32,000 nt of DNA from Halorhodospira halophila SL1 (GCF_000015585.1 NC_008789.1:1440001-1472000); one strand, 5' to 3'. Shown: positions 1 to 14,204, numbered from the stretch's first letter. Notes: generated by a model not told the origin, from the letters alone. Numbers and translations: made by a program.

Positions 1-996
1 GAACGCCATGGAGTGGAAGTCATCCACGATCGCGCCGAGGAGTTGGACCTGGCCGGGAAGCGGGTCCTCCCTCGCAACCACGATCCCATTCGCTACGATC
101 GTCTGGTGGTGGCCCCCGGGATCGACTTCGACTGGGAACGAATCGAGGGCATCGACCAGGACGATACCGAACAGATCCCGCACGCCTGGGAGGGCGGGCG
201 ACCCTTCCGGATCCTGCGGGAACAGATCAAGGCCATGGACGACGGCGGCACCGTCATTGTCTGCCCGCCAGAGGACCCCTTCCGCTGCCCGCCGGGGCCC
301 TACGAGCGCATGGCACTGATCGCCCATTACCTCAAGTCCCACAAGCCGCGCGCCAAGGTCCTGGGGCTCGACCCGAAAGACAGCTTCTCGAAGCAGAGTC
401 TGTTCAAGCAGGGCTGGGAGGAGCTCTACGGCGATATGATCGAGTGGGTCCCCGGCTCCGAGGGCGGCGCCCCGGAGCGGCTTTCGGTGTCGGATCGCAA
501 GGTCTTCACCGACGGGGGTGCCCAGGCACACCGGGGTGACGTCATCAACTTCATCCCGCCGCAGAGAGCCGGCGCGATCGCCTGGAAGGCCGATCTGGTG
601 GATGACAGTGGCTGGTGCCCGGTGGATCAGGAGACCTTCAGGTCCCAAAAGCACGACGACGTCTACGTGATCGGCGACGCGGCCATCGCCGGGGCCATGC
701 CCAAGTCGGCCCACAGCGCCAACAATCAGGGCAAACTGGTCGCCGCCACCATCGTCGGCGAACTCACCGGCGAACCAACTCCCGATTTCCCCACGGTCAA
801 CACCTGCTACAGCCTGGTCTCGCCGGAGTGGGCCTTCACCATCGCGGCGGTGTTCGAACACCGGGACGGCGAGATCCGGGAGGTTGAGGGTTCCGGTGGG
901 CTCAGCCCGGAAGACGAGGACCAGGACTTCCGACAGATCGAGGCCATCTACGCCCCTGGGTGGTACGAGTCGATCACCAAGGACATGTTCGGATAG
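1..996 (+). CDS. fccB: Flavocytochrome c sulfide dehydrogenase flavoprotein subunit (FccB), 3' portion; the 5' end is off-window
   Basis: Frame 1 is open from base 1 (ERHGVEVIHD...), so the tracked GTG at 13 is internal. The C-terminal half matches the FCSD flavin-binding domain as I recall it from Allochromatium FccB: WCPVD, VIGDAAI..MPKSAHSANNQGK, NTCYSLV, and the terminal GWYESITKDMFG. TAG stop at 994-996. Confidence 0.88.
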   Translation, partial: ERHGVEVIHDRAEELDLAGKRVLPRNHDPIRYDRLVVAPGIDFDWERIEGIDQDDTEQIPHAWEGGRPFRILREQIKAMDDGGTVIVCPPEDPFRCPPGPYERMALIAHYLKSHKPRAKVLGLDPKDSFSKQSLFKQGWEELYGDMIEWVPGSEGGAPERLSVSDRKVFTDGGAQAHRGDVINFIPPQRAGAIAWKADLVDDSGWCPVDQETFRSQKHDDVYVIGDAAIAGAMPKSAHSANNQGKLVAATIVGELTGEPTPDFPTVNTCYSLVSPEWAFTIAAVFEHRDGEIREVEGSGGLSPEDEDQDFRQIEAIYAPGWYESITKDMFG

Positions 997-1059
997 CGGA
1001 TTGGTGCCCGGCCACGCTAGAGTGGCCCGCAACCACACGCGGAAAGGACTCATTCAGCG

Positions 1060-3150
1060 ATGTTGCGCCTGCTCAAGTGGCTCCTGCTGATCCTCCTCGC
1101 CCTGATCGTGACCCTGGGCGTCGCCATCGCCGTGGTGGCTACGGTGATCGACCCCAACGACTACCGCGACGACCTGGCCGAACTCGCCGAGCGCGAGTTG
1201 GGCCGGGAGCTCGAGATCGAGGGCGAGATCGAGTGGTCGTTCTTCCCCTGGCTGGGTATCGAGATCGGACGCGTCACCCTGGCCGACGCCGAGGGCTACT
1301 ACGACGAGCCGTTTGTCGAAATCGACCGGCTGTCGGCGGCGGTACAGGTCTGGCCCCTACTGCGCGGCGAGCTGCATACCCGCGCCGTCGAGCTCGAGCG
1401 CCCGATCGTACGCCTGATGCGCGACGAGGATGGCCGGGACAACTGGGCGGACCTGGCCGAACGGTTCGCCGCCGCTGAGGACGAGCACGAAGACGACACC
1501 GCGGCGCAGGAATCCGCGGACTCCGAAAGCCCGGCGCAGGACAGCCCTGCCGATCTCGAGGCCCTCGGCGGGATCGTGATTGGCGGACTGCGGCTGCATG
1601 AAGGAGCCGTCTACTGGGAGGACCGCAGCGAAGACCGGCAGATCCAGCTGGACCCGCTGAACCTGGAGGTGGACACTCTGCGCCTGGACGAGCCGGTGGG
1701 CGTGCGCGCCGACGTGCTCGTCGGCGACGAAGAGCGCGTGGCTTTCTCCGGCGAGGCCCGCCTGAGTCAGACCGACGCCGGCCCGGAGATAGCAGCCAGC
1801 TGGACTCTGGATCCCCTCGACCCCAAGGGCCTGCTCCAGGCCCTCGGTGAGGAGCCGCCCGAGACCACGGACCCCGAGGTCATGCGCAGCCTCAGCGGCT
1901 CCGGAACCATCGATGCCACGGCGGAGCGCATCGACGTCACGCGCCTCATCCTCGACCTCGACGACAGCCGCGTCGAGGCTCAGGCGGCCATCGAGCCTGA
2001 GCAGCCAACCATCGAGTTCGCCGCACAGCTCGATCGGATCGACCTCGACGGCTATCTGCCGCCGGAGGCCGCCGAGGGAGAAGCCAATGGCAATGGCAAC
2101 GGCGAAACGGCCACTGCGAACGATAACGGCGGACCGGAGGGCCTCGGCGACCTGCGCGAGGTGGCGCTGGACTTTCCCCTGGAGCCGCTGCGGCCACTGA
2201 TCCTGGATGGCCGAGTTGGCATCGGCGAGCTCCGCGCCGCCGACCTGACAGTCACCGACTTCGAAGCCCTGCTGAGCGGTGCTGATGGGGAGCTCGGCGC
2301 CGAGTCCCTGCAAGCGCACCTCTACGAGGGCGAGCTGGCCGGTCATGCGTGGCTCGACGCCCGCGATGACGACCCCGCCTTCGATGTGGCCGCCTCGCTG
2401 GAGGGTGTGGCGTTCGCCCCGCTGCTCGAGGATCTGCTGGGCCGCGACTGGCTCCACGGCACGGGTCAGTTCCACTTCGAGGGCAGCGGCGGTGGCCCCC
2501 ACCTCCACGGGCTGATCGAGGATTTCGACGGCTCGGGGCACATCGCCGCCGAAGACGGCAATCTGCTCGGCCTCAACATTCCCCACAAGATCCGCGAGGC
2601 CGCGGCGCAACTGCGCCGGGAGGATTCCCCCGAGCCGCCCGGCGATGCGGAACGGACGGACTTCTCCGACCTGACCGCCAGCTTCACCCTCGAGGATGGC
2701 GTCGCCCGCAACGACGACCTGCTGCTCGAGTCCCCCCTGCTCGATGCCACCGGGGAGGGCTCGGCGGACATCCTCGCCGAGGAGATCGACTACCGGGTGC
2801 GGGCGACGTTCCCCGATGGGTTGTCGGAAGATGATGCGCCGCTCCTGTATCACCTTGCCGGAGCCACGGTACCGCTGGAGATCTCCGGCTTCCTGTTCGA
2901 CCCGGACATCCGACTCGACCTCGCCGCTGCACTGGGTGAAGAGCGCCTGGAACGCCTCGGCGCGGCTCGCGAAGAGTTTGACGAGCGTGTGGACGAGGAG
3001 CGCGAGCGCCTGGAACAGAAGGCTCAGCAGGAACGGGAGCGCCTCGAACAGGAGGCCAAGCAGGAACGGGAGCGGCTCGAACGAGAGGCTCAAGAGCAGC
3101 GGGACGACGCTGAACGGCGCCTCCGCGAGGAGCTGGAGAGTTTCTTCTAG
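1060..3150 (+). CDS. asmA: AsmA-family outer-membrane biogenesis protein
   Basis: ATG at 1060 with GGAAAGGA upstream. N-terminal membrane anchor MLRLLKWLLLILLALIVTLGVAIAVVA is followed by DPNDYRDDL...LEIEGEIEWSFFPWLGIEIGRVTL, the typical AsmA N-terminal signature. The long acidic beta-rich body and the DAxGEGSADIL..EIDYRV C-terminal AsmA_2-like segment also fit. High GC3 coding pattern. Confidence 0.85.
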   Translation: MLRLLKWLLLILLALIVTLGVAIAVVATVIDPNDYRDDLAELAERELGRELEIEGEIEWSFFPWLGIEIGRVTLADAEGYYDEPFVEIDRLSAAVQVWPLLRGELHTRAVELERPIVRLMRDEDGRDNWADLAERFAAAEDEHEDDTAAQESADSESPAQDSPADLEALGGIVIGGLRLHEGAVYWEDRSEDRQIQLDPLNLEVDTLRLDEPVGVRADVLVGDEERVAFSGEARLSQTDAGPEIAASWTLDPLDPKGLLQALGEEPPETTDPEVMRSLSGSGTIDATAERIDVTRLILDLDDSRVEAQAAIEPEQPTIEFAAQLDRIDLDGYLPPEAAEGEANGNGNGETATANDNGGPEGLGDLREVALDFPLEPLRPLILDGRVGIGELRAADLTVTDFEALLSGADGELGAESLQAHLYEGELAGHAWLDARDDDPAFDVAASLEGVAFAPLLEDLLGRDWLHGTGQFHFEGSGGGPHLHGLIEDFDGSGHIAAEDGNLLGLNIPHKIREAAAQLRREDSPEPPGDAERTDFSDLTASFTLEDGVARNDDLLLESPLLDATGEGSADILAEEIDYRVRATFPDGLSEDDAPLLYHLAGATVPLEISGFLFDPDIRLDLAAALGEERLERLGAAREEFDERVDEERERLEQKAQQERERLEQEAKQERERLEREAQEQRDDAERRLREELESFF
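2998..3096 (+). repeat. Three tandem 33-nt (11-codon) repeats encoding a charged coiled-coil tail of AsmA
   Basis: Units lie at 2998-3030, 3031-3063 and 3064-3096. They encode ERERLEQKAQQ / ERERLEQEAKQ / ERERLEREAQE and are in frame within the asmA ORF. Confidence 0.8.
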
Positions 3151-3164
3151 CAGGGAGCAGCTGC

Positions 3165-3557
3165 ATGGGCACACTCATCTTCGGCCGCCAGGACCTGGAA
3201 AATCGGCTCGCCGCGATGACCCCGGAGGAGATCGACGACCTCCCCTTCGGGGTCATCCAGATCGACCAGCACGGGCGCATCCTGCTCTACAACGCCACGG
3301 AGGGTGCGATCACCGGTCGTGATCCAGAGGCGATGATCGGCCGGGACTTCTTCAACGACGTCGCACCGTGCGGGCACACGGAGGCCTTTTACGGCCGGTT
3401 CCAGGAGGGTGTCCGGCACGGTGACCTCAACGAGATCTTCGACTACACCTTCGATTACCGCATGGCGCCGACGAAGGTGCGGGTGCACATGAAGCGGGCG
3501 CTCAGCGGAGATACCTACTGGATCTTCGTCAAACGGATCAGCGCCCCGGCAGCCTGA
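3165..3557 (+). CDS. pyp: Photoactive yellow protein (PYP) homologue, stand-alone, 130 aa
   Basis: ATG at 3165 with GGGAG 7 nt upstream, 14 nt after the asmA stop. It aligns end to end with Halorhodospira halophila PYP as I recall it: FG.IQ.D..G.IL.YN..EG.ITGRDP...IG..FF.DVAPC....FYG.F.EGV..G.L...F.YTFDY.M.PTKV.VHMK.ALSGD.YW.FVKR. By my count Tyr42, Glu46, Thr50, Arg52 and Cys69 (TGC 3369-3371) keep identical numbering. Confidence 0.9.
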   Translation: MGTLIFGRQDLENRLAAMTPEEIDDLPFGVIQIDQHGRILLYNATEGAITGRDPEAMIGRDFFNDVAPCGHTEAFYGRFQEGVRHGDLNEIFDYTFDYRMAPTKVRVHMKRALSGDTYWIFVKRISAPAA

Positions 3558-3604
3558 TGGCGGCGGCTACCACGGCCTTTTGCTGCTCGGCGCAGCACTG
3601 GGCG

Positions 3605-3634
3605 TGGCACATAGCAGGCGGGCTCGGGGATAAT
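3605..3634 (+). promoter_or_regulatory. Weak candidate promoter ahead of the acidic ORF
   Basis: GATAAT -10-like hexamer at 3629-3634 in one of the few AT-richer patches. A weak sigma54-like GG-N10-GC (GTGGCACATAGCAGGCG, GG 3606-3607, GC 3618-3619) overlaps it, but its -12 element is poor. Sequence inspection only. Confidence 0.25.
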
Positions 3635-3684
3635 AGGGGCTCGCCTAAGCCGATCGGGCGCACGCCCAAGCCAGAGGGAGCCGC

Positions 3685-3930
3685 ATGAGCGAAGAGACCC
3701 CCAGACTCAACACCGACCTTGCCAGACAGGTGCAGGCCCTCGGCCTCGAAGCCGTCGATCACCAGGACGACGAACCGATGGCCACGGTGGAGGCGCTGAT
3801 GCTCGGGACCCTGTCGTTCGCGCGGAACTACATGAGCGGCGCGGACCTGGCCGACTACCTCCGCTTTGTCGCCGAGCACGTCGAGCGAGCCGACGACGAA
3901 GCCGGAGATGATTGGGACGACGAGGCGTAA
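3685..3930 (+). CDS. Small highly acidic hypothetical protein (81 aa)
   Basis: ATG at 3685 preceded by AGAGGGAG. Strong G/C preference at third codon positions, unlike the overlapping Arg/Gly/Pro-rich antisense ORFs. The C-terminus ERADDEAGDDWDDEA is extremely acidic. I recognise no family. Confidence 0.6.
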   Translation: MSEETPRLNTDLARQVQALGLEAVDHQDDEPMATVEALMLGTLSFARNYMSGADLADYLRFVAEHVERADDEAGDDWDDEA

Positions 3931-3935
3931 CCACG

Positions 3936-3964
3936 CCGGCCCCGGGGACAGCACCCGGGGCCGG
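3936..3964. terminator. Perfect 11-bp GC hairpin between convergent genes (possible bidirectional terminator or RNA stabiliser)
   Basis: CCGGCCCCGGG (3936-3946), loop GACAGCA (3947-3953), CCCGGGGCCGG (3954-3964). It sits between the acidic ORF stop (3928-3930) and the minus-strand lipoprotein stop (3973-3975). There is no U-tract on either strand. Confidence 0.45.
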
Positions 3965-3972
3965 ATGCCGGA

Positions 3973-4458
3973 CTATTCGCTGGCCATGCGCTCGAGGGCA
4001 TCGAGCGCCTGTTGATCCCCCCCGACAAAAAACCGCACCTCGCCGTCCGTATCGCGGTAGAAGACGGTGGGGACGCTGCGCACGCCCAAATCCTGAGCGA
4101 GCTGCATGTTGGCCTGGACGGCATCGTAGCCATCGATGTCTTTCTCGTCCTCGATCATCGCCGCCGCATCCGCCTGGGCGCCCGAACCGAGGAAACCGAC
4201 CGGCACCCACCGCCACTCCACACTCGGCGTGGCGCCGTTCTCCACGGCATTCTTGAGGTTGGTACACGCCGGGCAGTGCGGGTCCTTGACAGCGTAGACC
4301 CGGAAGTCACTCTCCCCGTGAGTGATGTAGTGACTATCGGCCAGCTGATCGAAGACGTCCGCCTTCGCGGACTCCCCCGGCGTGCCGTCGGAACAGCCGA
4401 CCATCAACAGCGCACCGCCCAGCAGGCCCAGGATCCCCTGACGCATCGCTCGACTCAT
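3973..4458 (-). CDS. Thioredoxin-fold thiol:disulfide interchange lipoprotein (DsbC/DsbG C-terminal-domain-like)
   Basis: Lipoprotein signal MSRAMRQGILGLLGGALLMVGC with a lipobox; CxxC motif CPAC; C-terminal GVRSVPTVFYRD.DGE...GG typical of the DsbC/G thioredoxin domain. GAGGGAG lies upstream of the ATG at 4458. Confidence 0.8.
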   Translation of the reverse strand: MSRAMRQGILGLLGGALLMVGCSDGTPGESAKADVFDQLADSHYITHGESDFRVYAVKDPHCPACTNLKNAVENGATPSVEWRWVPVGFLGSGAQADAAAMIEDEKDIDGYDAVQANMQLAQDLGVRSVPTVFYRDTDGEVRFFVGGDQQALDALERMASE

Positions 4459-4540
4459 TGATCGCTCACTCCCTCATCCGCGGTGTCTATCAAACGGCTG
4501 GCCACGCCGCGTCATGGGCAGCCCACTCCTGGCACCTAGT

Positions 4541-4924
4541 TCAGTGCTCCACCCCGGGCAACACAGCGTTGAGCAATTGCCCGGCACGCTCATGACCCGC
4601 CTCCGCTGCGCGTTCCCAAAGCTCGGCGGTGCGCTCCATATCCGGATCCATGGTATGGCCCTCCAGATACATCCAGCCTAGCTGAACCTTGGCCTCGGCA
4701 TCCCCCTGATCGGCCAGATCTTGAAAGGCGTCATAGGCGGCGTCCAGATCGCCCTCCTCATGGAGTTCAAAGGCCTTGTTGAGGGCTTGATCGGCCTCGC
4801 TCAGCTCCTCGTCCTCGTCGGAGACCTCTGCCGACTCCTCGCCGAAAGCCCCTCCGGACCATCCGGCCACCCCGAGGACCAGGACAGCGGCCAGGCAGAA
4901 GCGTTGGTTGCGTTTCAGCTGCAT
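4541..4924 (-). CDS. Secreted Sel1/TPR-like repeat protein (127 aa)
   Basis: The tracked 240-aa ORF has an implausible Arg/Pro/Ser-rich N-terminus. The internal ATG at 4924 gives MQLKRNQRFCLAAVLVLGVAGWSGGAFG (signal peptide). An acidic linker and the Sel1-like GDAEAKVQLGWMYLEGHTMD...A..W..AAEAGH follow. Confidence 0.75.
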   Translation of the reverse strand: MQLKRNQRFCLAAVLVLGVAGWSGGAFGEESAEVSDEDEELSEADQALNKAFELHEEGDLDAAYDAFQDLADQGDAEAKVQLGWMYLEGHTMDPDMERTAELWERAAEAGHERAGQLLNAVLPGVEH

Positions 4925-5093
4925 GGGTCTTCTCCGGAGATCATCTGGAAAGCCGCAGCGTAACGCAGGATCGACTCGCTGTCGCACCGCGACGATGCGA
5001 TCGGCACCAAGAAGGGGCGCGCGCGTTATCATAGACGATTTGTATGACACCCTACGCACGTTCCAAAGTCGGCATGGAGGCAAGACGGCGAAC

Positions 5094-5474
5094 ATGCTTG
5101 AGATCCCGCCACGGCAGATCCTCCAGGCCCTGGGCGAGGGCGTGATCGGTGTTGATTGCCAGGGGCTACTGACCTTTCTCAATCCGGCCGCGCTGCGGCT
5201 GTTCGGGTTCCCCGACGAGGCCAGTGTCATCGGCGAGTCGGCCCACGCCCTGACCCACCACACGCACCCCGATGGCCGTCCTTACCCGGAACAGGACTGC
5301 CCCATCTACCAGGTCCTCGAGACCGGCGAGCCCCTGGAAGCGTGGCAGGACCACGTCTGGCGCAGCGACGGCAGCGGTTTCCCCGTCCAGGTCTACGCCA
5401 ACCCACTGCGGGATGACCAGGGCGCGCTCACCGGTGCTGCAGCGGGGCCTGCGCCTCAACTGGCAGCTGGATGA
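5094..5474 (+). CDS. PAS-domain-only ORF (N-terminal remnant or part of a hybrid sensor kinase)
   Basis: ATG at 5094 gives MLEIPPRQILQALGEGVIGVDCQGLLTFLNPAALRLFG...HHTHPDGRPYPEQDCPIYQVLETGEP...WRSDGSGFPVQVYANPLRDDQGALTG, a complete PAS fold. The frame then runs into non-homologous AAAGPAPQLAAG and a TGA at 5472-5474. Confidence 0.6.
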   Translation: MLEIPPRQILQALGEGVIGVDCQGLLTFLNPAALRLFGFPDEASVIGESAHALTHHTHPDGRPYPEQDCPIYQVLETGEPLEAWQDHVWRSDGSGFPVQVYANPLRDDQGALTGAAAGPAPQLAAG

Positions 5475-6294
5475 ACGCCTGCCCGAGCATGTGTACGCCG
5501 ACCCCACCCGTCTCGGACAGATCCTCGCCAATCTCGTCGGCAACGCCATCAAGTTCACAGAGCACGGATCCGTCGACGTTCACATCACGCCCCAGCACGA
5601 TCAGCGCATCTCCTTCCGGGTGGCCGACACCGGCCCGGGGATCCCTGAATCCATCCGCGCCACCATCTTCGAACCGTTCGCCCGCGGCGATCAGGGGGTG
5701 CCGCAAACCCCGGGGACCGGGCTTGGCCTGGCGATCTGCCGGGAACTCGTCGGACTCATGGGGGGTCGGATCGACGTAGAGAGCGCCGAAGGCCGCGGGA
5801 CGACCTTCAGCTTCACGGTCGAACTGCCCGCATGTGACGCCATCGTGCCAGCGGCGGTCGACACGGATCGCCCCCGGACACCGAGCCGCCCGGGAGCGCA
5901 CCACGATACGCCGCAGGCCATCCTCGCTGAGGACGAGCCAACCAACGCCCTGCTGCTCAGCACGTTGCTTGAGCGCGCGGGGTGGGCCGTAACCACCGTG
6001 ACCGACGGCGCCGAGGCCGTCGAGGCCTGGCAAGAGGCGCAACCGGAGCTGATGATCCTGGACATGCAGATGCCTCACACCAACGGCGATCAGGCGGCAG
6101 CACGAATCCGCAGCCTGGAGCAGCAGCACCGGGTACCGCGCACGCCCATCGTCATGCTCACCGCCCACGCCCTGGACGATGTCCGCGAGCGCGCGCGGCA
6201 GGCCGGCTGTGACCACTACCTGACCAAGCCGGTGGCACCGGAGGATCTGTATTCGGTACTGGACTGGGCCCAGGGCGGCGACGGGTCGCCATGA
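5434..6294 (+). CDS. HATPase_c + receiver (REC) protein with no DHp/HisKA domain (C-terminal part of a hybrid kinase; possibly a pseudogene fragment)
   Basis: Frame 1 from the GTG at 5434 reads VLQRGLRLNWQLDERLPEHVYADPTRLGQILANLVGNAIKFT (N box). G1 DTGPGI, F FEPF and G2 GTGLGLAI follow, then a REC domain (ILAEDEP, ILDMQMP, MLTAH, LTKP). The upstream part of the tracked ORF (5272-5433) is nonsense overlapping the PAS frame. The stop overlaps the next gene's ATG (ATGA at 6291-6294). Confidence 0.6.
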   Translation: MLQRGLRLNWQLDERLPEHVYADPTRLGQILANLVGNAIKFTEHGSVDVHITPQHDQRISFRVADTGPGIPESIRATIFEPFARGDQGVPQTPGTGLGLAICRELVGLMGGRIDVESAEGRGTTFSFTVELPACDAIVPAAVDTDRPRTPSRPGAHHDTPQAILAEDEPTNALLLSTLLERAGWAVTTVTDGAEAVEAWQEAQPELMILDMQMPHTNGDQAAARIRSLEQQHRVPRTPIVMLTAHALDDVRERARQAGCDHYLTKPVAPEDLYSVLDWAQGGDGSP

Positions 6295-7774
6295 GGCGCT
6301 GGCCGTCCGTCGCAGCCGGGCTGCGCAACCCGCTCGGCCCTGCCAAATCCCTGCTGCGACTGCTCCTGACCGGTTTCGCCGTGGTCGCGGCACCGCTGAT
6401 CCTGGCGCTGGCCATCGCCGCCTGGTCCGTGGACCGTCTGGCCAGCGACAGCCAGATCGCCATCTACGAGGCCGTCGGCGTCACCGAGAACAGCGCCCAC
6501 ATGGCCCGCGTGGCCATGGACATCGAGCGCGCCGCCCGCCGCTACGCCACCCATAACGACCCGACCGCGCTTCAGGAGTACCGCCACTGGCGCCGTGAAC
6601 TGGCCGCCGCCGGCGCCCCACCGGGCGCATTCGGCCCCGAGGAGGCCACCTGGCTCCATCAGGGGCTGCGGGTCATCGAGTCCACGCTACTGACCACCCT
6701 GCACCTGCTCGGGCCGGACCGTCCCGAGACCGCCATGCGGGTCCCGGAGCTGAGCCTGGCGCTACACCGTTCCGTGGCGAGCATCTCGGCGGCGGGCTAC
6801 CGGCGTATCGACGAGGAGGTTGAGCAGGTCCAGGCCTTCTCCGATCGGGCCCACCAGATCTTTGTCTGGCACCTTCTCGCCGCGGTGCCGATCACGCTGG
6901 CCTTTACCTTCTACTTCGCCGGACGCATCCACCGACCGATCCAGGCCCTCGGGGACAGCATCCGCCGCCTGGGAACAGCGGATTTCGAACGCCCCGTGGA
7001 GATCCGCGGCCCCCGGGATCTGGAGAACCTCGGCGGCGAGCTGGACGATCTGCGCCGACAACTGGCTGACCTGCAGAACCAGCGCCAGCGGCTGCTGCGC
7101 CACTTCTCCCACGAACTCAAGACCCCGTTGGCCGCCGTCCTGGAAGGCGCCGAACTCCTCCGGGACCCGGCCTTCAACGGGGACCCGCAACGGCGCGAGG
7201 AGATCGCCGACATCGTCCGCGAGAACGGCCATGAACTGCGCCGCCAGATCGACAACCTCCTGCGCTTCGCGCGCCACGGCGAGGCCCTGGCCCGCCCTGC
7301 CCGCTTCGCCCGCCTGGACCTGTCCGCACTGGTGCACGAAGTGGCCGAGCGACACCAGCTGACGGCCCAGCGCCGCGGCATCGAGATACGCACCCACCTG
7401 GAACCGGCGGAGATCGAGGGTGACCGCGAGCTGATGGCCACCGTAGTCGACAACCTGCTCTCGAACGCCCTGCGTTTCTCTCCGGAAAACCGGCCCATCG
7501 ATCTGCACCTGCGCGGTGACGACCACGGGGTGATCCTCGAAGTGCAGGACCGCGGCCAGGGCATCCCCGAGCACGAGCGTTCCCTGATCTTCGAGCCCTT
7601 CCGTCAGGGCGCGACCAGCGGCAGCGGCTCCGTAAAGGGCAGCGGGTTGGGCCTGTCCCTGGTCCACGAGTGCCTGAATGCCCACAACGGTACGATCCAC
7701 GCACAGACGCGATCCGACGGCCCCGGGGCGAACATGCGCGTGTGGCTACCCACCGATACCCAGCGAGCCAACGT

Positions 7775-7778
<4 letters not shown>
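6291..7778 (+). CDS. glrK: Sensor histidine kinase, GlrK/QseE-like (TM-periplasmic-TM-HAMP-HisKA-HATPase)
   Basis: The N-terminus MRRWP..., the ERAARRYATHNDPTAL segment, the H-box QRQRLLRHFSHELKTPLAAV and VKGSGLGLSLV all parallel E. coli GlrK as I recall it. ATGA overlaps occur at both ends (6291-6294 and 7775-7778). The symbol is assigned by similarity only. Confidence 0.82.
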
Positions 7779-9144
<1,366 letters not shown>

Positions 9145-9148
<4 letters not shown>

Positions 9149-10326
9149 ATCGCCTGGCCGACGGCCACGCCGGAGGACCACGCCCATTGGAAGTTGTGCC
9201 CGCCCAGCTGCCCGGTGACATCGACCACCTCGCCGACGAAATGCAACCCCGGCACCTCACGCGCCTCCAGGGTCCGGGACGACAGCGCGTCGGTGTCGAC
9301 CCCGCCGGCGGTCACCTCGGCCTTGGCGTAGCCCGCCGTACCGGCCGGGGTCAGCCGCCATTCCTGAAGCCGTTGCGCCACCGCCTCCAGGCCCCGGTTG
9401 CTGAACCCCTGCAATGGGCCGGACCACCCCTCCAGATCGCACAGCACCCGGGCGAGACGCCGCGGCAAGTGCGCCTCCAGGCAACGGTGCAAAGCCCGCT
9501 TGCTGCGCCTGCGCCGCGCCTCGGCAAGCTCGTCGTGCAGGGCGACACCCGGTAGCCAATCCAGGCTCAGCGGCACCTCGGGCTGCCAATAGCTAGAGGC
9601 CTGCAGTGCCGCCGGCCCACTCAGCCCGTGGTGGGTGATCAGCAGATCGTCGCTGAACTCAGCCTCGGCGCAGCGCACCCGGACCGGCACGCTGATGCCC
9701 GCCAGATCCCCGATCGGCCGGCGCAGGTGCTCCGGCAAAGTCAGCGGCACCAGCGCAGGGCGCGTGGGCTGCACCGGCAGACCGAACTGCCGGGCAATGG
9801 CGTATCCGAGGCCGCTGGCCCCCATCCGGGGGATCGACAGCCCGCCGGTAGCGACCACCAACGCCTCGGCGTGCAAGGTTCCGGTCGGGGTGGCGACGGC
9901 GAAACCCTCCGCCGTCGCCTGGACGCTGCGCACCCCGGTCCCCATGCGCAGTTCGACCCCGGCCTGGCGACCTTCGCTGAGCAGCAGGTCGAGGATGGGC
10001 CGGGCGGATTCGCGGCAGAATAGCCGTCCCGGCTCACGCTCCTCATAGGCAACGCCGTGGCGCTCCACGAGCTCCAGGAAGGCGGCCGGCGGATAACGTC
10101 GCAGCGCCGAGATGCAGAACCGCGGGTTGGCCGACAGGAAGTGCTCCGGCCCGCTGTGAAGGTGGGTGAAGTTGCACCGCCCACCTCCCGACATGAGGAT
10201 CTTGCGTCCGGGTTTGCGGGCGTGATCGAGCACCACCACCCGCCGGCCCCGCCCGGCGGCAGTGGCGGCACACATCAGCCCGGCCGCACCGGCGCCGATC
10301 ACGATCACATCGATCTGTTCCGTCAT
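9145..10326 (-). CDS. NAD(P)/FAD-dependent oxidoreductase of the HI0933/YhiN (BaiN-like) family
   Basis: True start is ATG 10326 (MTEQIDVIVIGAGAAGLMCA..., Rossmann GxGxxG), with AGGAG overlapping the helicase stop. KILMSGGGRCNFTH is the family signature, and the C-terminus has GLHFVGEVVDVTGQLGGHNFQWAWSSG. The tracked 466-aa version carries a spurious 73-aa extension. Confidence 0.85.
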
Positions 10327-10331
10327 CACTC

Positions 10332-12725
10332 CTACCGAATGTCGACAACGCGACTGGCTCGCTGGAAGCGCACCCGCCAGCCCGGCCAGGCGGGCAGTTC
10401 CCAACGCTTCGGATCCGTGCGGCGGATGCCGCCCACCTTCTCGGCCACCACCTCGCGGCGCCGCACATGGTAGTGGATGCGCAGATCGAGATCGGGGAGC
10501 TGGACCCGGCGGGGATAGCGTTCGTCGAAATCCGGCCGTTGCCACTCCGGCACCCCGGGGAAGCGCAGATCCTCGGGCTCAAGCAGTGTCAGGTCCTCGC
10601 CGCGCTCCACGCCCAGCCGCTCGAGCTGCTCCAGCAGCCACGCCCGTGCCTCGGGCACCGCCCCCTCCGCATACCCGAGGGCGACATAGAGGGACCACGC
10701 CTCCAGATCGTCCTGGAGCCGGCTACCCGCCGGCGCCAGCAGCTGGTCTTCGAGAATCAGCTCGGCCGCTGCCTCGCGCGCCGCGGCGCCCTCCGGCTCC
10801 ACCTCCTCGCTCCCGATGCAGCGCCCGGCAAACAACCACTCGCGCCGCGCCGTCAGCCGCTCCCCGGTCCATGCGGGCTCGCTGATTCCCTCGCTGCAGG
10901 CGCCGCTGGCAACGACCCATTGCAGCGGCATGGGGGCCAGGGCCGTAGCCAGGCTGATGGTCTGCCGGGTGCCCTTGCCGGGGACGCTGTGCGTGCCGAG
11001 GACCAGGGCCGCCTCGGCCTCCTCCGGAAACCAGGCGTGCTCGCCGAGCACCACCTCATCGCCGGCACCGTTGCCAAGCGCCTGCCGCCTGCGCCCGCGA
11101 CGCACATAGAGCCACGTCGGCATCGCCCGGGCGGCGGCGGTCAGGGCCCGCTCCATCCGCCCAGAGTCCAGACCCGGTACACCCTCGTTCATCGGCTCGG
11201 AAACCGGCCGGGGCCAAGCCGGTAGATCGAGGAGCTCACGCAGCTGACCCGCCAGCCGACGCCCCTCCTCCCGCACCCGCGTGTCGATCCGCACACCAGG
11301 CAGCCGCTCGCAGCGCAGCGCCGCCACGCGCAACCGGGCATCGCAGCGCTGCCCAAGCAACCCGGCCAGGGCCTCGCACTCGTCGCTATCGCCCCGAACC
11401 TGCAGCCAGCGATCCCCCGCCGCCAGCCCGGCCACCCAGTCGGCCATCAGCCCCCCCGTCTCGACATCGGGCATGGCCAGGACCAGGTGGGCCAGCTCCG
11501 GATCCACCGGCATGCGAAACAGCCGTTGGCCCCGCGTCGTGATCCGCCCGGAGGCATCCAGGGCACCCAGGCTCCGCAGCAGCCCCTCGGCCTGCTCCCG
11601 GCTCTCCTCGCGCGGCGTATCCACGAAGGGGAGCTCGGCGACCCGGTAGCCGGCACCGGCCGCAGCCAGCACCAGTTCAGTCAGATCCTCGCGCAACACT
11701 TCCGGGGGCGCGTGCTCGGGCAGCGGCGCCGCGTGCCCCCAGAGGCGGTAGCAGGTGCCGGGCTGCAGGCGGCCGGCACGCCCGGCCCGCTGCGCCGCAC
11801 TGGCTCGGGAGATGGGCTGCAGGGAAAGCACGGTCCGGCCGTTGCGGCGCAGGGTCCGGCGCTCCAGGCCACTATCCACCACGGCCGTCACCCCCGGCAC
11901 GGTCAGCGAGGTCTCGGCGATATTCGTGGCCAGCACCACACGCCGGGCCGAACCCGGCTCGAGGGCCCGGCGCTGCTCGGACAGTCGCACCCCGCCGTGG
12001 AGCCGAACCACCTCAGCCTCCACCCCGGAGAGACTGCGCCGCGCCTCCTCGATTTCAGCCTGCCCGGGCAGGAAAGCGAGGACGTCCCCGGCCGTCTCCG
12101 CCAGTGCGCGCCGCACCACTGCAGCCAATCGCTTGCCGAGGTCCTTGCGTTGCGGCATGGCCCGTGGCTGCTCGCCACAATGGCGTTCATCCACCGGGTA
12201 CCCGCGCCCCGGCGACTCCAGATACGTCCCGTCCAACGCGGCCGCGAGCCTTTCCCCCTCCAGGGTCGCCGAGGTGATCACCAGGCGCTGGCCCCCATCG
12301 GCGCGCAGCAACGCGAGGAGTAGGTCGGTGTCCCAGCGCCGCTCATGGAACTCGTCGAGGATCACCGTCTGGAACCCCGCCAATCGCCCCTCGGCCCGCC
12401 AGCGCAGGGCCACACCGGGGGTCACGAAGAGGACCCGGGTCCGCTCCGAGTAGCGGCGCTCCAGGCGGACGGCGTAACCGACCTCGTCCCCCGCTGCGGT
12501 ACCGCACTGCGCGGCCACGAAACCGGCCAGACTGGTGGCCGCCACACGGCGGGGCTGGACGACCAGCACCGGCCCGCCAGCGTCCGCCGCCCAGACCGGC
12601 AGTCGGGTAGACTTGCCGGAGCCGGTCGCGGCCGCCACCACGCAGTGGCCCTGCTCCAGCGCCCGGTGGAAGTCCGGCCGCAGTGAATCGATGGGCAGCG
12701 CTGTCCTTCCCCGTTCGTCACTCAT
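10332..12725 (-). CDS. hrpB: DEAH-box ATP-dependent helicase, HrpB-like (797 aa)
   Basis: Walker A AAATGSGKST, DEFHERR (DEAH box), SATL, TNIAETSLTVPGV and QRAGRAGR, followed by a long C-terminal region. Length and N-terminus (LPI..L.P.....L) resemble HrpB. The C-terminal domain is divergent, so the symbol is tentative. Confidence 0.8.
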   Translation of the reverse strand: MSDERGRTALPIDSLRPDFHRALEQGHCVVAAATGSGKSTRLPVWAADAGGPVLVVQPRRVAATSLAGFVAAQCGTAAGDEVGYAVRLERRYSERTRVLFVTPGVALRWRAEGRLAGFQTVILDEFHERRWDTDLLLALLRADGGQRLVITSATLEGERLAAALDGTYLESPGRGYPVDERHCGEQPRAMPQRKDLGKRLAAVVRRALAETAGDVLAFLPGQAEIEEARRSLSGVEAEVVRLHGGVRLSEQRRALEPGSARRVVLATNIAETSLTVPGVTAVVDSGLERRTLRRNGRTVLSLQPISRASAAQRAGRAGRLQPGTCYRLWGHAAPLPEHAPPEVLREDLTELVLAAAGAGYRVAELPFVDTPREESREQAEGLLRSLGALDASGRITTRGQRLFRMPVDPELAHLVLAMPDVETGGLMADWVAGLAAGDRWLQVRGDSDECEALAGLLGQRCDARLRVAALRCERLPGVRIDTRVREEGRRLAGQLRELLDLPAWPRPVSEPMNEGVPGLDSGRMERALTAAARAMPTWLYVRRGRRRQALGNGAGDEVVLGEHAWFPEEAEAALVLGTHSVPGKGTRQTISLATALAPMPLQWVVASGACSEGISEPAWTGERLTARREWLFAGRCIGSEEVEPEGAAAREAAAELILEDQLLAPAGSRLQDDLEAWSLYVALGYAEGAVPEARAWLLEQLERLGVERGEDLTLLEPEDLRFPGVPEWQRPDFDERYPRRVQLPDLDLRIHYHVRRREVVAEKVGGIRRTDPKRWELPAWPGWRVRFQRASRVVDIR

Positions 12726-12740
12726 CGCCCATCGACCGAA

Positions 12741-14195
12741 TCAGTCGCGCATGCCGCCCGTCCAGCACGGGTCGATGCTGGCCGCCGCATCGCGGTCCTC
12801 CGCCTCGCCGCGGTACCAGCCCAGGCGCGGGTGCAACTGCACCGTGGGACCGACCACCACCAGCGCCGGGCTCTCCACCCGTTCGGCGCGGACCCGTTCA
12901 GCCAGGGTCCGCAGATTGCCGAGGACCACGCGCTGCTGCGGCGTCGTCGCCTGGGCCACCACCGCAGCCGGATGCTCGGGCGGCAGCCCACACTCGCACA
13001 GTTGCTCGCACACCGCCTCGAGGTTGACCAGGCCCATGTAGATGATGAGTGTCTCGTCCTGGCGATAGGGCGCGTGGGCCTTCATCTGCGGGTGCCCGGC
13101 CCGCCGGTGACCGGTGAGCAGGCGACAGGTCTGGGCGTAATCCCGGTGGGTGAGCGGGATACCGGCATAGCTCGCCGCCCCCTGGGCGGCGCTGATGCCG
13201 GGCACCACCTGGAAGGGGATGTCCTGCTCGATCAGCCCCTCGATCTCCTCACCGCCGCGGCCGAAGAGGAATGGGTCACCGCCCTTGAGACGCAGGACCC
13301 GTTTACCGGCACGCGCCAATTCCACCAGCCGCTCGTTGATCCGCTCCTGCGGCAGTGTATGCCGACCGCGGCGCTTGCCCACGGGGATCCGCTCGGCCTC
13401 CTTGCGCACCAGATCCAGCAGGGCCGGCGCCGCCAGACGATCGTAGAGCACCACGTCAGCCCGCTGCATCAGGCGCAGCGCACGGAAGGTCAGTAGATCG
13501 GGGTCCCCGGGGCCAGCGCCGACCAGGAAGACCTCCCCCTGCGGGGCCGGCCGGGCCTGTTCCTGCTCGAGCAGGCGCAGCAGTTCGGCCTCCCCCTCGG
13601 CCTCGCGCCCTGCCAACACCGATTCCGCCGCCGCCCCATCGAAGATCTGCTCCCAGAACCGCAACCGCCAGTCCTTGTCCGGCAGCGCCACCCGCACCTG
13701 CTCCCGCATCCGTCCGGCCAGGCGTGCCAGCCGGCCGTAGGCCGCCGGCAGCAGTGTCTCTAGCCGACTGGCGATCTGCCTTGCCAGCACCGGCGCGGCG
13801 CCACCGCTGGAGACCGCCAGCTGCAGGGGCGAGCGATCCACCTGGACCGGGGTGATGTAGGTGCTCAGCGACGGCCGGCCGGCAACGTTGACGGGAATCC
13901 CCCGGGCACGACACGCCTCATAGACGGTACGGTCGGTGGCCTCATCGCCGCTGGCCCCCACCACCAGCGCCGCGCCCTCCTCCATACCCGCCGCGAACGG
14001 CTCGGCGCGGTGGTGGAGCTCGCCGGGGCTGGTATCCAGCAGTTGCTCGCAGGGCGCCGCCAGGACCGGCGCGATCAACTCCACCCGCGCGCCGGCCCGG
14101 AGCAGATCCCCGGCCCTGCGCGCAGCCGCCTCGCCGCCGCCCACAACCAGGCAGCGGCAACCGTGGAGCTTGAGGAAGATCGGGTAGTGGTGCAT
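12741..14195 (-). CDS. cysG: Siroheme synthase (precorrin-2 dehydrogenase/sirohydrochlorin ferrochelatase + uroporphyrinogen-III C-methyltransferase)
   Basis: N-terminal YPIFLKLHGCRCLVVGGGEAA (CysG-B Rossmann) and C-terminal SUMT domain VFLVGAGPGDPDLLT...RLKGGDPFLFGRGGEE...VPGISAA. 484 aa. Confidence 0.9.
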   Translation of the reverse strand: MHHYPIFLKLHGCRCLVVGGGEAAARRAGDLLRAGARVELIAPVLAAPCEQLLDTSPGELHHRAEPFAAGMEEGAALVVGASGDEATDRTVYEACRARGIPVNVAGRPSLSTYITPVQVDRSPLQLAVSSGGAAPVLARQIASRLETLLPAAYGRLARLAGRMREQVRVALPDKDWRLRFWEQIFDGAAAESVLAGREAEGEAELLRLLEQEQARPAPQGEVFLVGAGPGDPDLLTFRALRLMQRADVVLYDRLAAPALLDLVRKEAERIPVGKRRGRHTLPQERINERLVELARAGKRVLRLKGGDPFLFGRGGEEIEGLIEQDIPFQVVPGISAAQGAASYAGIPLTHRDYAQTCRLLTGHRRAGHPQMKAHAPYRQDETLIIYMGLVNLEAVCEQLCECGLPPEHPAAVVAQATTPQQRVVLGNLRTLAERVRAERVESPALVVVGPTVQLHPRLGWYRGEAEDRDAAASIDPCWTGGMRD

Positions 14196-14204
14196 GGGTT
14201 CAGT

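What the first reader, a model, noticed from the sequence alone, without database searches (positions are those of the whole stretch)
5094..6294. Hybrid sensor kinase lacking its entire DHp/HisKA domain, split into a PAS ORF and a HATPase-REC ORF
The PAS ORF (frame 3) ends its homologous part at ...NPLRDDQGALTG. Exactly there, in frame 1, a GTG (5434) opens VLQRGLRLNWQLDERLPEHVYADPTRLGQILANLVGNAIKFT. That is the segment which normally follows the phospho-accepting helix bundle. No H-box exists in any frame, and there is physically no room for one between 5433 and 5434. The N, G1, F and G2 boxes and all receiver residues (acidic pocket, Asp in ILDMQMP, Thr, Lys) are intact, which argues against long-term decay. 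The ORF stop also overlaps the start of the GlrK-like kinase (ATGA), which in turn overlaps glrR. One explanation is a very recent deletion plus frameshift, giving a pseudogene. The other is a genuine accessory module, with a catalytic domain and phosphate-sink receiver acting in trans on the neighbouring complete kinase and a free PAS sensor.
Basis: seen in the sequence. Interest (0 to 1): 0.65.

Follow-up and report, generated by a model that had tools for sequence, protein, structure and literature searches.

The report
Deletion-broken sensor kinase gene remnant
The two small genes are the leftover ends of one large sensor-kinase gene that lost its 1.5-kb middle in Halorhodospira halophila SL1, so this is an ordinary, recently made pseudogene and not a new kind of signalling module.

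Summary
Window 5094-5474 encodes a lone PAS fragment. Window 5434-6294, in another frame, encodes HATPase_c+REC with no HisKA. The second ORF overlaps the next kinase gene by ATGA.

The window is Halorhodospira halophila SL1. At the exactly syntenic position, Halorhodospira sp. 9622, genome GCA_001564315.1 and a soda-lake metagenome contig carry one uninterrupted gene of about 900 codons: PAS x4-HisKA-HATPase-REC. SL1 residues 1-115 match residues 1-115 of that protein (76%). SL1 CA-REC matches residues 617-895 (69%). SL1 therefore lacks 1,502 nt (3x500+2), with the junction at 5438|5439.

The deletion removes:
- the last beta-strand of PAS1
- three PAS domains
- the whole DHp, including the phospho-accepting His
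- about the first 27 residues of the catalytic domain

It also shifts the frame. The sequence is identical in four other assemblies, including strain BN9630, so it is not an error.

SL1 shows no excess amino-acid change, so the deletion is recent on the scale of species divergence. The same gene carries two other independent out-of-frame deletions: 788 nt in BN9626 plus a MAG, and 40 nt in another MAG.

Verdict: an ordinary pseudogene that RefSeq annotates as two proteins. Low interest.

The parts
5076..5080 (+). GGAGG Shine-Dalgarno of the ancestral hybrid-kinase gene, 13 nt upstream of ATG 5094
   Evidence: Duplex energy with the anti-SD is -9.3 kcal/mol, among the strongest of 11 genes in the window. 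The start is conserved with the intact orthologue (MLEIPPRQIL vs MVNLPPQRIL).
5094..5438 (+). 5' remnant: codons 1-115 of the ancestral ~900-codon hybrid kinase. This is PAS1 without its last beta-strand.
   Evidence: 76% identical, without gaps, to residues 1-115 of P0129. blastn aligns window 5104-5437 with orthologue nt 11-344 at 79.6%. The Pfam PAS match stops at model position 106/113 here, against 113/113 in the orthologue. The lost 'AVVSFQD' aligns with the C-terminal segment of the solved WalK PAS construct.
5436..5441 (+). Deletion scar: junction between bases 5438 and 5439 (…ACC GGT GCT | G CAG CGG…). 1,502 nt are missing relative to Halorhodospira sp. 9622. Microhomology is at most 1 nt.
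   Evidence: Left- and right-registered alignments to L082 and L083. The offsets differ by 1502 (L082) and 1508 (L083).
5439..5474 (+). Out-of-frame tail of the PAS ORF (…AAGPAPQLAAG, stop TGA 5472-5474). It is read from what used to be catalytic-domain codons.
   Evidence: Translation. The same bases in frame 1 encode QRGLRLNWQLDE, homologous to orthologue residues 617-628.
5440..6294 (+). 3' remnant in frame 1: codons 617-899 of the ancestral gene. It comprises the catalytic (HATPase_c) domain lacking about its first 27 residues, the linker, and a complete receiver domain. RefSeq calls it from GTG 5434 (WP_049751504.1, 286 aa).
   Evidence: 69% identical to P0129 residues 617-895. Pfam HATPase_c plus Response_reg, no HisKA. 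Exact match to the NCBI protein. The candidate starts have no or weak SD: GTG5434 -3.0, ATG5413 +1.4, ATG5272 +0.7 kcal/mol.
6291..7778 (+). Downstream intact HAMP-HisKA-HATPase sensor kinase (495 aa). Its start overlaps the remnant's stop (ATGA).
   Evidence: Pfam. Same 495-aa gene with the same 4-nt overlap after the intact hybrid kinase in L082, L083 and L095. The best NCBIfam hit is CreC at 166 bits against a cutoff of 356, and there is no GlrK hit.
7775..9148 (+). Downstream REC-sigma54 AAA+-HTH response regulator (457 aa), overlapping the kinase by ATGA.
   Evidence: Pfam. The best NCBIfam hit is GlrR at 603 bits, below the equivalog cutoff of 763.

Best explanation
The locus is the remnant of a single gene for a cytoplasmic multi-PAS hybrid histidine kinase (PAS1-PAS2-PAS3-PAS4-HisKA-HATPase-REC, about 900 aa). 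This gene is the first of a three-gene operon, followed by a HAMP sensor kinase and a sigma54-dependent response regulator.

Shown: in the H. halophila sensu stricto lineage (SL1 and BN9630), one illegitimate-recombination event removed 1,502 bp, codons 116-616 plus 2 nt. The phospho-accepting His and the dimerisation helices are gone, so the locus cannot encode a histidine kinase.

Inferred:
- The 5' piece keeps its native ribosome-binding site and start. It should be translated into a 126-aa PAS fragment that lacks the final beta-strand of the fold and ends in 11-12 junk residues.
- Ribosomes stop at 5474. The 3' piece (truncated catalytic domain plus receiver) has no ribosome-binding site of its own and is probably translated poorly or not at all.
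- Translational coupling into the downstream kinase gene (ATGA overlap) is probably weakened.
- The event is recent relative to the roughly 14% genome divergence from the sister species, because the remnants show no extra amino-acid change.
For: 1. Identity of the window. It is H. halophila SL1; the proteins are ABM62104/WP_011814126 and ABM62105/WP_049751504.

2. Intact orthologues in full synteny. The gene order is AsmA-PYP2-81aa-Trx(-)-Sel1(-)-HK-HK-RR-flavoprotein(-)-helicase(-). It holds in Halorhodospira sp. 9622 (L082, 899 aa), GCA_001564315.1 (L083, 900 aa) and soda-lake contig L095.

3. Collinear alignments on both sides of a 1,502-nt gap, with the junction at 5438|5439 and length = 3n+2.

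4. The lesion is real. The sequence is 100% identical in four other assemblies, including strain BN9630.

5. Domain truncation. The PAS model match is cut at 106/113, and the lost segment aligns with the end of the solved WalK PAS construct. The 6QRJ alignment puts the remnant's first residue about 28 residues after the end of the DHp.

6. No ribosome-binding site for the 3' ORF, against a strong GGAGG at the ancestral start.

7. No lineage-specific decay. Unique amino-acid changes in CA-REC are SL1 29, sp. 9622 31, GCA 33. Lineage-specific N:S is 23:28 against 51:82 (Fisher p=0.41). dN/dS is 0.24-0.29 in all pairs.

8. The gene is dispensable and fragile. There are independent out-of-frame deletions of 788 nt in BN9626 plus a 99.6%-identical MAG and of 40 nt in MAG C1M08_22. 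The gene also evolves faster than all its neighbours in every lineage.
Against: - Both ORFs are open, and every catalytic and receiver motif is intact.
- The SL1 branch shows no relaxation of constraint. That is also what continued selection on the fragments would give.
- RefSeq annotates both pieces as ordinary proteins.
- No expression data were available.
- Only one near-clonal lineage (SL1/BN9630, ANI 99.99%) carries the lesion, so its age cannot be bounded from below.
Confidence: 0.88

Rival explanations
1. Genuine two-protein accessory module. A free PAS sensor and a His-less catalytic-plus-receiver protein are both made. They act in trans on the neighbouring complete kinase, for example as a phosphate sink or ATP-binding modulator.
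For: The ORFs are open, the N/G1/F/G2 and receiver motifs are intact, and there is no excess nonsynonymous change on the SL1 branch. The stop-start overlap with the downstream kinase is kept.
Against: - The arrangement is a fresh out-of-frame scar in a gene that is whole in syntenic relatives.
- PAS1 has lost its last strand, and the catalytic domain has lost about its first 27 residues.
- There is no Shine-Dalgarno for the second ORF, whose start lies inside the first ORF.
- The ATGA overlap and the motifs are simply inherited from the intact gene.
- Two other short HATPase-REC proteins examined in the databases are also downstream halves of split genes.
Confidence: 0.06
2. The loss was selected rather than neutral. 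Inactivating this hybrid kinase is advantageous, in culture or in soda-lake or saltern habitats, so deletions recur and spread. The locus is still a pseudogene, but an adaptive one.
For: There are three independent out-of-frame deletions of the same gene among roughly a dozen related genomes. Two of them are shared by more than one genome, including environmental MAGs.
Against: The gene has the weakest constraint of the neighbourhood in all lineages (dN/dS 0.24-0.33 against 0.06-0.17). Its four tandem PAS domains offer homeologous repeats for deletion; the BN9626 junction lies at equivalent positions of PAS1 and PAS3. Relaxed selection plus a fragile sequence is therefore enough. No fitness data exist.
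Confidence: 0.15
3. Sequencing or assembly error: the real SL1 gene is intact.
For: None beyond the general frequency of frameshift errors.
Against: A missing 1.5 kb is not a homopolymer error. The identical junction occurs in the finished SL1 genome, the BN9630 draft and three Logan assemblies of separate runs, with 0 mismatches over 3.1-15.5 kb.
Confidence: 0.01
4. The short form is ancestral, and the relatives gained the PAS2-4/HisKA segment by insertion.
For: None.
Against: - The two SL1 halves are in different frames, and both flanking domains are cut mid-fold.
- Every other syntenic lineage has the PAS-HisKA segment: L082, L083, L095, L092 in part, and L001.
Confidence: 0.01

Closest known systems
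Intact orthologue: PAS domain-containing hybrid kinase of Halorhodospira sp. 9622 (WP_238642249.1, 899 aa) and its 900-aa counterpart in GCA_001564315.1
   Same: Same chromosomal position, same start codon context and same downstream kinase/regulator genes with the ATGA overlap. Identity is 76% over residues 1-115 and 69% over residues 617-895.
   Different: SL1 lacks residues 116-616 (end of PAS1, PAS2-4, HisKA, start of the catalytic domain), and the two halves are in different frames.
HisKA-type hybrid histidine kinases (closest solved: PDB 6QRJ 'Hybrid kinase'; best NCBIfam partial hits TorS/BarA/ArcB, all far below cutoffs)
   Same: The remnant keeps a recognisable HATPase_c with N, G1, F and G2 boxes and a receiver domain with the conserved Asp/Thr/Lys.
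   Different: There is no DHp and no phospho-accepting His, and the product is not a single polypeptide. It cannot autophosphorylate by the family's mechanism.
Bacterial pseudogenes made by internal deletion or frameshift (survey: PMC522871; a strain-specific truncated sensor kinase, AgrC, in MRSA HC1335: PMC5174738; both known here only from titles and abstracts listed)
   Same: A disabled copy of a gene that is intact in close relatives. The lesion is strain- or lineage-specific. The pieces are still called as ORFs by annotation pipelines.
   Different: Nothing essential. Here the same gene has been hit by three different deletions in related lineages.
   Same: The regulator is a REC-sigma54 AAA+-HTH protein, and its best NCBIfam hit is GlrR.
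   Different: The regulator scores 603 bits against a cutoff of 763. The kinase's best hit is CreC (166 against 356), and GlrK is not among its 25 best listed NCBIfam families. Membership is not established.

Membership tests
HisKA-type hybrid histidine kinase | DHp/HisKA domain with the phospho-accepting histidine (H box) | tested here: not met
   No HisKA hit in either ORF. The DNA alignment shows that the whole HisKA region (orthologue residues 524-589) lies inside the 1,502-nt deletion.
HisKA-type hybrid histidine kinase | Complete catalytic ATP-binding domain (N, G1, F, G2 boxes within an intact alpha/beta sandwich) | tested here: inconclusive
   Pfam HATPase_c matches model positions 2-110 of 111 and all boxes are present. 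However, the roughly 27 residues between the end of HisKA and the remnant's first residue are gone. From general knowledge of HK structures these form the first strand and helix of the domain. Folding was not tested.
HisKA-type hybrid histidine kinase | Receiver domain with phospho-accepting Asp fused in the same polypeptide as the kinase core | tested here: not met
   A receiver is present and complete (Response_reg, E=5.5e-26), but there is no kinase core to which it is fused.
Pseudogene (disabled orthologue) | Intact orthologue at the syntenic position in related genomes | tested here: met
   L082, L083 and L095 carry an uninterrupted gene of about 900 codons, and L082 and L083 show the identical neighbourhood on both sides.
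Pseudogene (disabled orthologue) | Disabling lesion that removes essential residues and/or breaks the frame | tested here: met
   A 1,502-nt (3n+2) deletion. Orthologue residues 116-616 are absent, including the H box.
Pseudogene (disabled orthologue) | The lesion is real, not a sequencing artefact | tested here: met
   Identical sequence in five assemblies and runs and in two named strains.
Pseudogene (disabled orthologue) | Relaxed selection or decay after the lesion | tested here: not met
   There is no excess of amino-acid or nonsynonymous change on the SL1 branch. This fits a recent lesion: by my rough Poisson estimate, at most about the last tenth of the branch was neutral. It does not prove loss of function.
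Pseudogene (disabled orthologue) | No functional product | not testable with these tools
   No expression or phenotype data. The literature search found no mention of these proteins.
GlrK/GlrR (QseE/QseF) system (downstream genes) | Scores above the NCBIfam equivalog cutoffs for GlrR and GlrK | tested here: not met
   GlrR scores 603 bits, below 763. The kinase's best hit is CreC at 166, below 356, and GlrK is not among the 25 best families listed for the kinase.

The most novel reading that the evidence does not exclude
The fragments are not inert. In this reading the PAS piece and a reinitiated, His-less catalytic-plus-receiver protein are made in SL1. They modulate the downstream HAMP kinase / sigma54 regulator pair, for example as a phosphate sink. 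Alternatively, the three independent deletions reflect selection to switch this kinase off in certain Halorhodospira populations. My evidence does not exclude either, because the SL1 branch shows no relaxation of constraint and no expression data exist.
Probability: 0.06. Interest if true: 0.45.

Novelty: new member of a known kind. Interest (0 to 1): 0.12.

Why it matters
The main value is annotation hygiene. RefSeq and UniProt list WP_011814126 (PAS protein) and WP_049751504 ('ATP-binding protein') as ordinary proteins of the H. halophila type strain, but they are the two ends of one deleted gene. Anyone cataloguing two-component systems or domain architectures such as 'HATPase-REC without HisKA' would be misled.

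There are two smaller points. SL1, the model strain for photoactive yellow protein work, lacks a multi-PAS hybrid kinase that its sister species has, 1.5 kb from the pyp2 gene. And this gene has been deleted in three different ways in related genomes, which makes it a small natural example of recurrent loss of a weakly constrained sensor.

Tried and rejected
- The first protein search, with the 286-aa remnant, showed nothing closer than 46% apart from SL1 itself. That briefly suggested an orphan. All listed hits were 501 aa or shorter, and all were 959 aa or shorter. The tool therefore appears to list only hits up to about 1.75 times the query length, so the 900-aa orthologues were invisible. 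They appeared only when I queried with the long N-terminal ORF of a MAG.
- The genome-contig scan with that MAG protein returned only the MAG itself and distant hits (Thioalkalivibrio, 39-41%). Its exact-peptide patterns missed the Halorhodospira orthologues.
- The metagenome scan with the SL1 remnant found one close relative (L095, intact). It found none closer to SL1, so the deletion could not be dated more finely.
- The H. halochloris (P0133) and H. neutriphila (P0132) homologues are not syntenic. I did not use them as orthologues.
- The promoter and terminator scan of 4400-6500 found nothing.
- Literature searches for the accessions, and for H. halophila expression data, found nothing usable.
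- A programmed +1 frameshift fusing PAS to HATPase-REC was considered and rejected by reasoning. I see no slippery site in the 5434-5474 overlap, and a fusion would still lack the DHp.
- Long direct repeats at the SL1 junction were looked for by eye in the alignments. At most 1 nt of microhomology is present.
- No structure prediction was run, because it would not distinguish the hypotheses.

Full report
**What is in the window.**
- A frame-3 ORF runs from ATG 5094 to the stop at 5472-5474. It reads MLEIPPRQILQALGEGVIGVD…NPLRDDQGALTG followed by AAAGPAPQLAAG.
- A frame-1 ORF ends at 6294. Its homologous part begins VLQRGLRLNWQLDERLPEHVYADPTRLGQILANLVGNAIKFT at GTG 5434.
- Pfam gives only PAS models for the first ORF (PF00989, E=1.6e-12, model positions 4-106 of 113).
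- Pfam gives HATPase_c (2-110 of 111) plus Response_reg for the second ORF, and no HisKA.
- The stop of the second ORF overlaps the ATG of a HAMP-HisKA-HATPase kinase (6291-7778). That kinase in turn overlaps a REC-sigma54-HTH regulator (7775-9148).

**Origin and reality of the sequence.** The 286-aa product is 100% identical to WP_049751504.1/ABM62105 of Halorhodospira halophila SL1. The 126-aa product is WP_011814126.1/ABM62104. The same DNA was recovered from GCA_016583685.1 and from three Logan assemblies of separate runs. It has 0 mismatches over 15,474, 15,474, 4,863 and 3,109 nt. According to PMC8877833, GCA_016583685.1 (NRRO01) is strain BN9630, nominally a Wadi el-Natrun isolate with ANI 99.99% to SL1. 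An assembly or homopolymer error is therefore excluded.

**Finding the intact gene.** The first protein search saw nothing closer than 46%. Its best non-self Halorhodospira hit, from a MAG, led to locus L001. There, next to the same HrpB-like helicase, a 586-aa ORF begins with a clear orthologue of the SL1 PAS fragment. It continues through two more PAS domains and a HisKA domain into the N box. Searching with that ORF revealed hybrid kinases of about 900 aa in Halorhodospira sp. 9622 (P0129, 899 aa; a 90% cluster of 14 members) and in GCA_001564315.1 (P0130, 900 aa).

Their contigs show complete synteny with the window. The gene order is:
- AsmA-family gene
- photoactive yellow protein 2
- an 81-aa ORF
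- thioredoxin-like gene (-)
- Sel1 gene (-)
- the hybrid kinase
- a 495-aa kinase starting 4 nt before the hybrid kinase's stop
- a 457-aa sigma54 regulator
- HI0933-like flavoprotein (-)
- helicase (-)

A soda-lake metagenome contig (L095) has the same uninterrupted gene followed by the 495-aa kinase. Pfam places P0129's domains as follows: PAS1 at 7-124, three PAS_3 domains, HisKA at 524-589, HATPase_c at 636-746 and REC at 777-890.

**The lesion.**
- blastn aligns window 5104-5437 with orthologue nt 11-344 (79.6%), and window 5459-6275 with nt 1868-2684 (73.9%). The two offsets differ by 1,502 nt, which is 3x500+2.
- Base-by-base registration puts the junction between 5438 and 5439 (…ACC GGT GCT | G CAG CGG GGC CTG…), with at most 1 nt of microhomology.
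- At protein level, SL1 residues 1-115 match P0129 1-115 (76%, no gaps). The frame-1 product matches 617-895 (69%).
- Residues 116-616 are therefore gone. These are the last strand of PAS1, PAS2-4, the whole DHp with the H box, and the segment between the DHp and 'QGLTLHW'. The lost PAS1 segment AVVSFQD aligns with the C-terminal segment of the solved WalK PAS construct. In the alignment to the solved hybrid kinase 6QRJ, the segment after the DHp covers about 28 residues. From general knowledge of histidine-kinase structures, those residues form the first strand and helix of the catalytic domain.
- A 3n+2 deletion moves the downstream codons from frame 3 to frame 1, exactly as observed. The PAS ORF's 11-12 residue tail is catalytic-domain DNA read out of frame.

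**Age and constraint.** SL1, sp. 9622 and GCA_001564315.1 are roughly equidistant at this locus: dS is about 0.5-0.9 for most pairs and genes (range 0.31-1.28).
- The remnants show no SL1-specific acceleration. Unique amino-acid changes in CA-REC are 29 (SL1), 31 and 33.
- dN/dS is 0.24-0.29 for all pairs.
- Lineage-specific nonsynonymous:synonymous counts in the two remnants are 23:28 for SL1 against 51:82 for the two intact lineages (Fisher p=0.41).
- With omega about 0.25, and a 95% Poisson upper bound of 40 on a count of 29, my rough estimate is that no more than about a tenth of the SL1 branch can have been neutral.
- So either the deletion is recent or the fragments are still constrained. 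These data cannot separate the two.
- In this 68% G+C genome, long open frames are common even on non-coding strands. One example is a 321-aa ORF antisense to the remnant.

**Translation signals.** The ancestral start at 5094 has a GGAGG (-9.3 kcal/mol to the anti-SD). The possible starts of the 3' ORF have none or weak ones: ATG5272 +0.7, ATG5413 +1.4, GTG5434 -3.0, GTG5491 -1.8. All but the last lie inside the PAS ORF, whose ribosomes terminate at 5474. I infer that the PAS fragment is made and that the HATPase-REC ORF is poorly translated. I also infer that coupling into the downstream kinase (ATGA overlap, inherited from the intact operon) is weakened. None of this was measured.

**The same gene is broken elsewhere.** Most members of P0129's cluster are 899 aa, or 882 aa with a later start call. 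Strain BN9626 (NHSN01, L092) instead has a 189-aa PAS ORF and a 530-aa PAS-HisKA-HATPase-REC ORF.
- Alignment to sp. 9622 shows a 788-nt (3n+2) deletion of gene nt 299-1086.
- The junction is CCCGTCCAGG|GATCCACGCC. It lies at equivalent positions of PAS1 (VQVYA) and PAS3 (WIHAR), with GG microhomology next to TCTACGCC/TCCACGCC.
- A Logan assembly (SRR15691272, L094) differs from BN9626 at 20 of 4,593 positions and carries the same junction.
- MAG C1M08_22 (L001) has a 40-nt (3n+1) deletion between the N and G1 boxes, relative to both SL1 and sp. 9622. Its gene-call fragments recur in three further records. That MAG also lacks the downstream kinase, regulator and flavoprotein.

That makes three independent out-of-frame deletions in one gene. 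The gene also has the highest dN/dS of its neighbourhood in every lineage, 0.24-0.33 (0.18 for PAS1 in the SL1-sp. 9622 pair) against 0.06-0.17. It therefore looks weakly constrained and dispensable. SL1 retains paralogues, one with a PAS domain 60% identical to PAS1 (P0138).

**Are stand-alone HATPase-REC proteins a class?** Two other short HATPase-REC proteins that sit on long contigs were examined. Both are downstream halves of split kinase genes. P0071 follows an 892-aa dCache-PAS-HisKA ORF by 10 nt. P0109 overlaps a 376-aa PAS ORF by 20 nt. This small sample gives no support for a functional His-less architecture.

**Neighbouring genes.** The regulator's best NCBIfam family is GlrR, but below the equivalog cutoff (603 against 763 bits). 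The kinase's best family is CreC (166 against 356), and GlrK is not among the 25 best families listed. 'GlrK-like' is therefore not supported as membership. The 130-aa ORF at 3165-3557 passes the PYP equivalog cutoff (184 against 143 bits). It corresponds to 'Hhal PYP2' (A1WWN8) of PMC12826048.

**Verdict.** The locus is a lineage-specific, recently formed pseudogene of a multi-PAS hybrid histidine kinase, made by one 1,502-bp out-of-frame deletion. Current annotation lists it as two proteins. The accessory-module idea has no positive support, though expression was not testable here. This is an ordinary event of a known kind. The only mildly notable aspect is the recurrent, independent deletion of the same gene in related Halorhodospira genomes.

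Noticed in passing
window 3165-3557 (+), with 1060-3150 (+) upstream: The 130-aa ORF is a photoactive yellow protein (TIGR02373, 184 bits against a cutoff of 143). It corresponds to the second PYP of H. halophila ('Hhal PYP2', A1WWN8, function unknown; PMC12826048). It starts 14 nt after an AsmA-family gene. In every syntenic genome examined it lies about 1.5 kb upstream of the hybrid-kinase operon, separated by two genes on the other strand. Any functional link to the kinase is pure speculation. Still, the model strain SL1 has lost that kinase.
   Followed up: partly
L092 3681-5593 (H. halophila BN9626, NHSN01) and L094 1181-3093 (Logan SRR15691272): A different, independent 788-nt out-of-frame deletion of the same gene (gene nt 299-1086). 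The junction is CCCGTCCAGG|GATCCACGCC, between equivalent positions of PAS1 and PAS3. It leaves a 189-aa PAS ORF and a 530-aa ORF with a complete kinase core. Two genomes that differ at 20 of 4,593 positions share it.
   Followed up: yes
L001 47-2388 (MAG Halorhodospira sp. C1M08_22, GCA_046546255.1): A third independent lesion: a 40-nt deletion between the N box and G1 box of the catalytic domain. This genome also lacks the downstream kinase, the sigma54 regulator and the flavoprotein, so the hybrid-kinase remnant abuts the helicase gene.
   Followed up: partly
window 6291-9148: The 'GlrK-like' label is not supported by NCBIfam. The kinase's best family is CreC, far below cutoff, and GlrK is not among the 25 best families listed. 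The regulator is nearest to GlrR but below the equivalog cutoff.
   Followed up: partly
window 5094-6294 versus neighbours 3973-12725; L082, L083: The hybrid-kinase gene evolves much faster than all its neighbours in every lineage. Amino-acid identity is about 68% in CA-REC and 54-76% in PAS1, against 81-96% in the neighbours. dN/dS is 0.24-0.33 (0.18 for PAS1 in the SL1-sp. 9622 pair) against 0.06-0.17. It looks weakly constrained even where it is intact.
   Followed up: yes
L084 (BN9630) versus window 1-15474: Strain BN9630 is described as a Wadi el-Natrun (Egypt) isolate. It is 100% identical to SL1 (Summer Lake, Oregon) over 15.5 kb here, and the paper reports ANI 99.99%. The two may be effectively the same clone, so the 'two strains' give almost no extra time depth for the deletion.
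   Followed up: partly
L088 313-3942 and L089 1890-3939: Other database proteins with a HATPase_c+REC-only architecture are also downstream halves of split sensor-kinase genes: a 10-nt gap after a dCache-PAS-HisKA ORF, and a 20-nt overlap with a PAS-only ORF. Whether these are errors, pseudogenes or true split kinases was not examined.
   Followed up: partly
SL1 genome outside the window (P0138, 871 aa; P0141, 657 aa): SL1 keeps intact paralogous multi-PAS hybrid kinases. One has a PAS domain 60% identical to the PAS1 fragment. This is a possible source of redundancy that would make the loss tolerable.
   Followed up: partly
window 5428-6393 (-) and many others: Very long ORFs (e.g. 321 aa) lie antisense or out of frame to real genes. 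This is typical of a 68% G+C genome, and it is a reminder that an open frame is weak evidence of function here.
   Followed up: no
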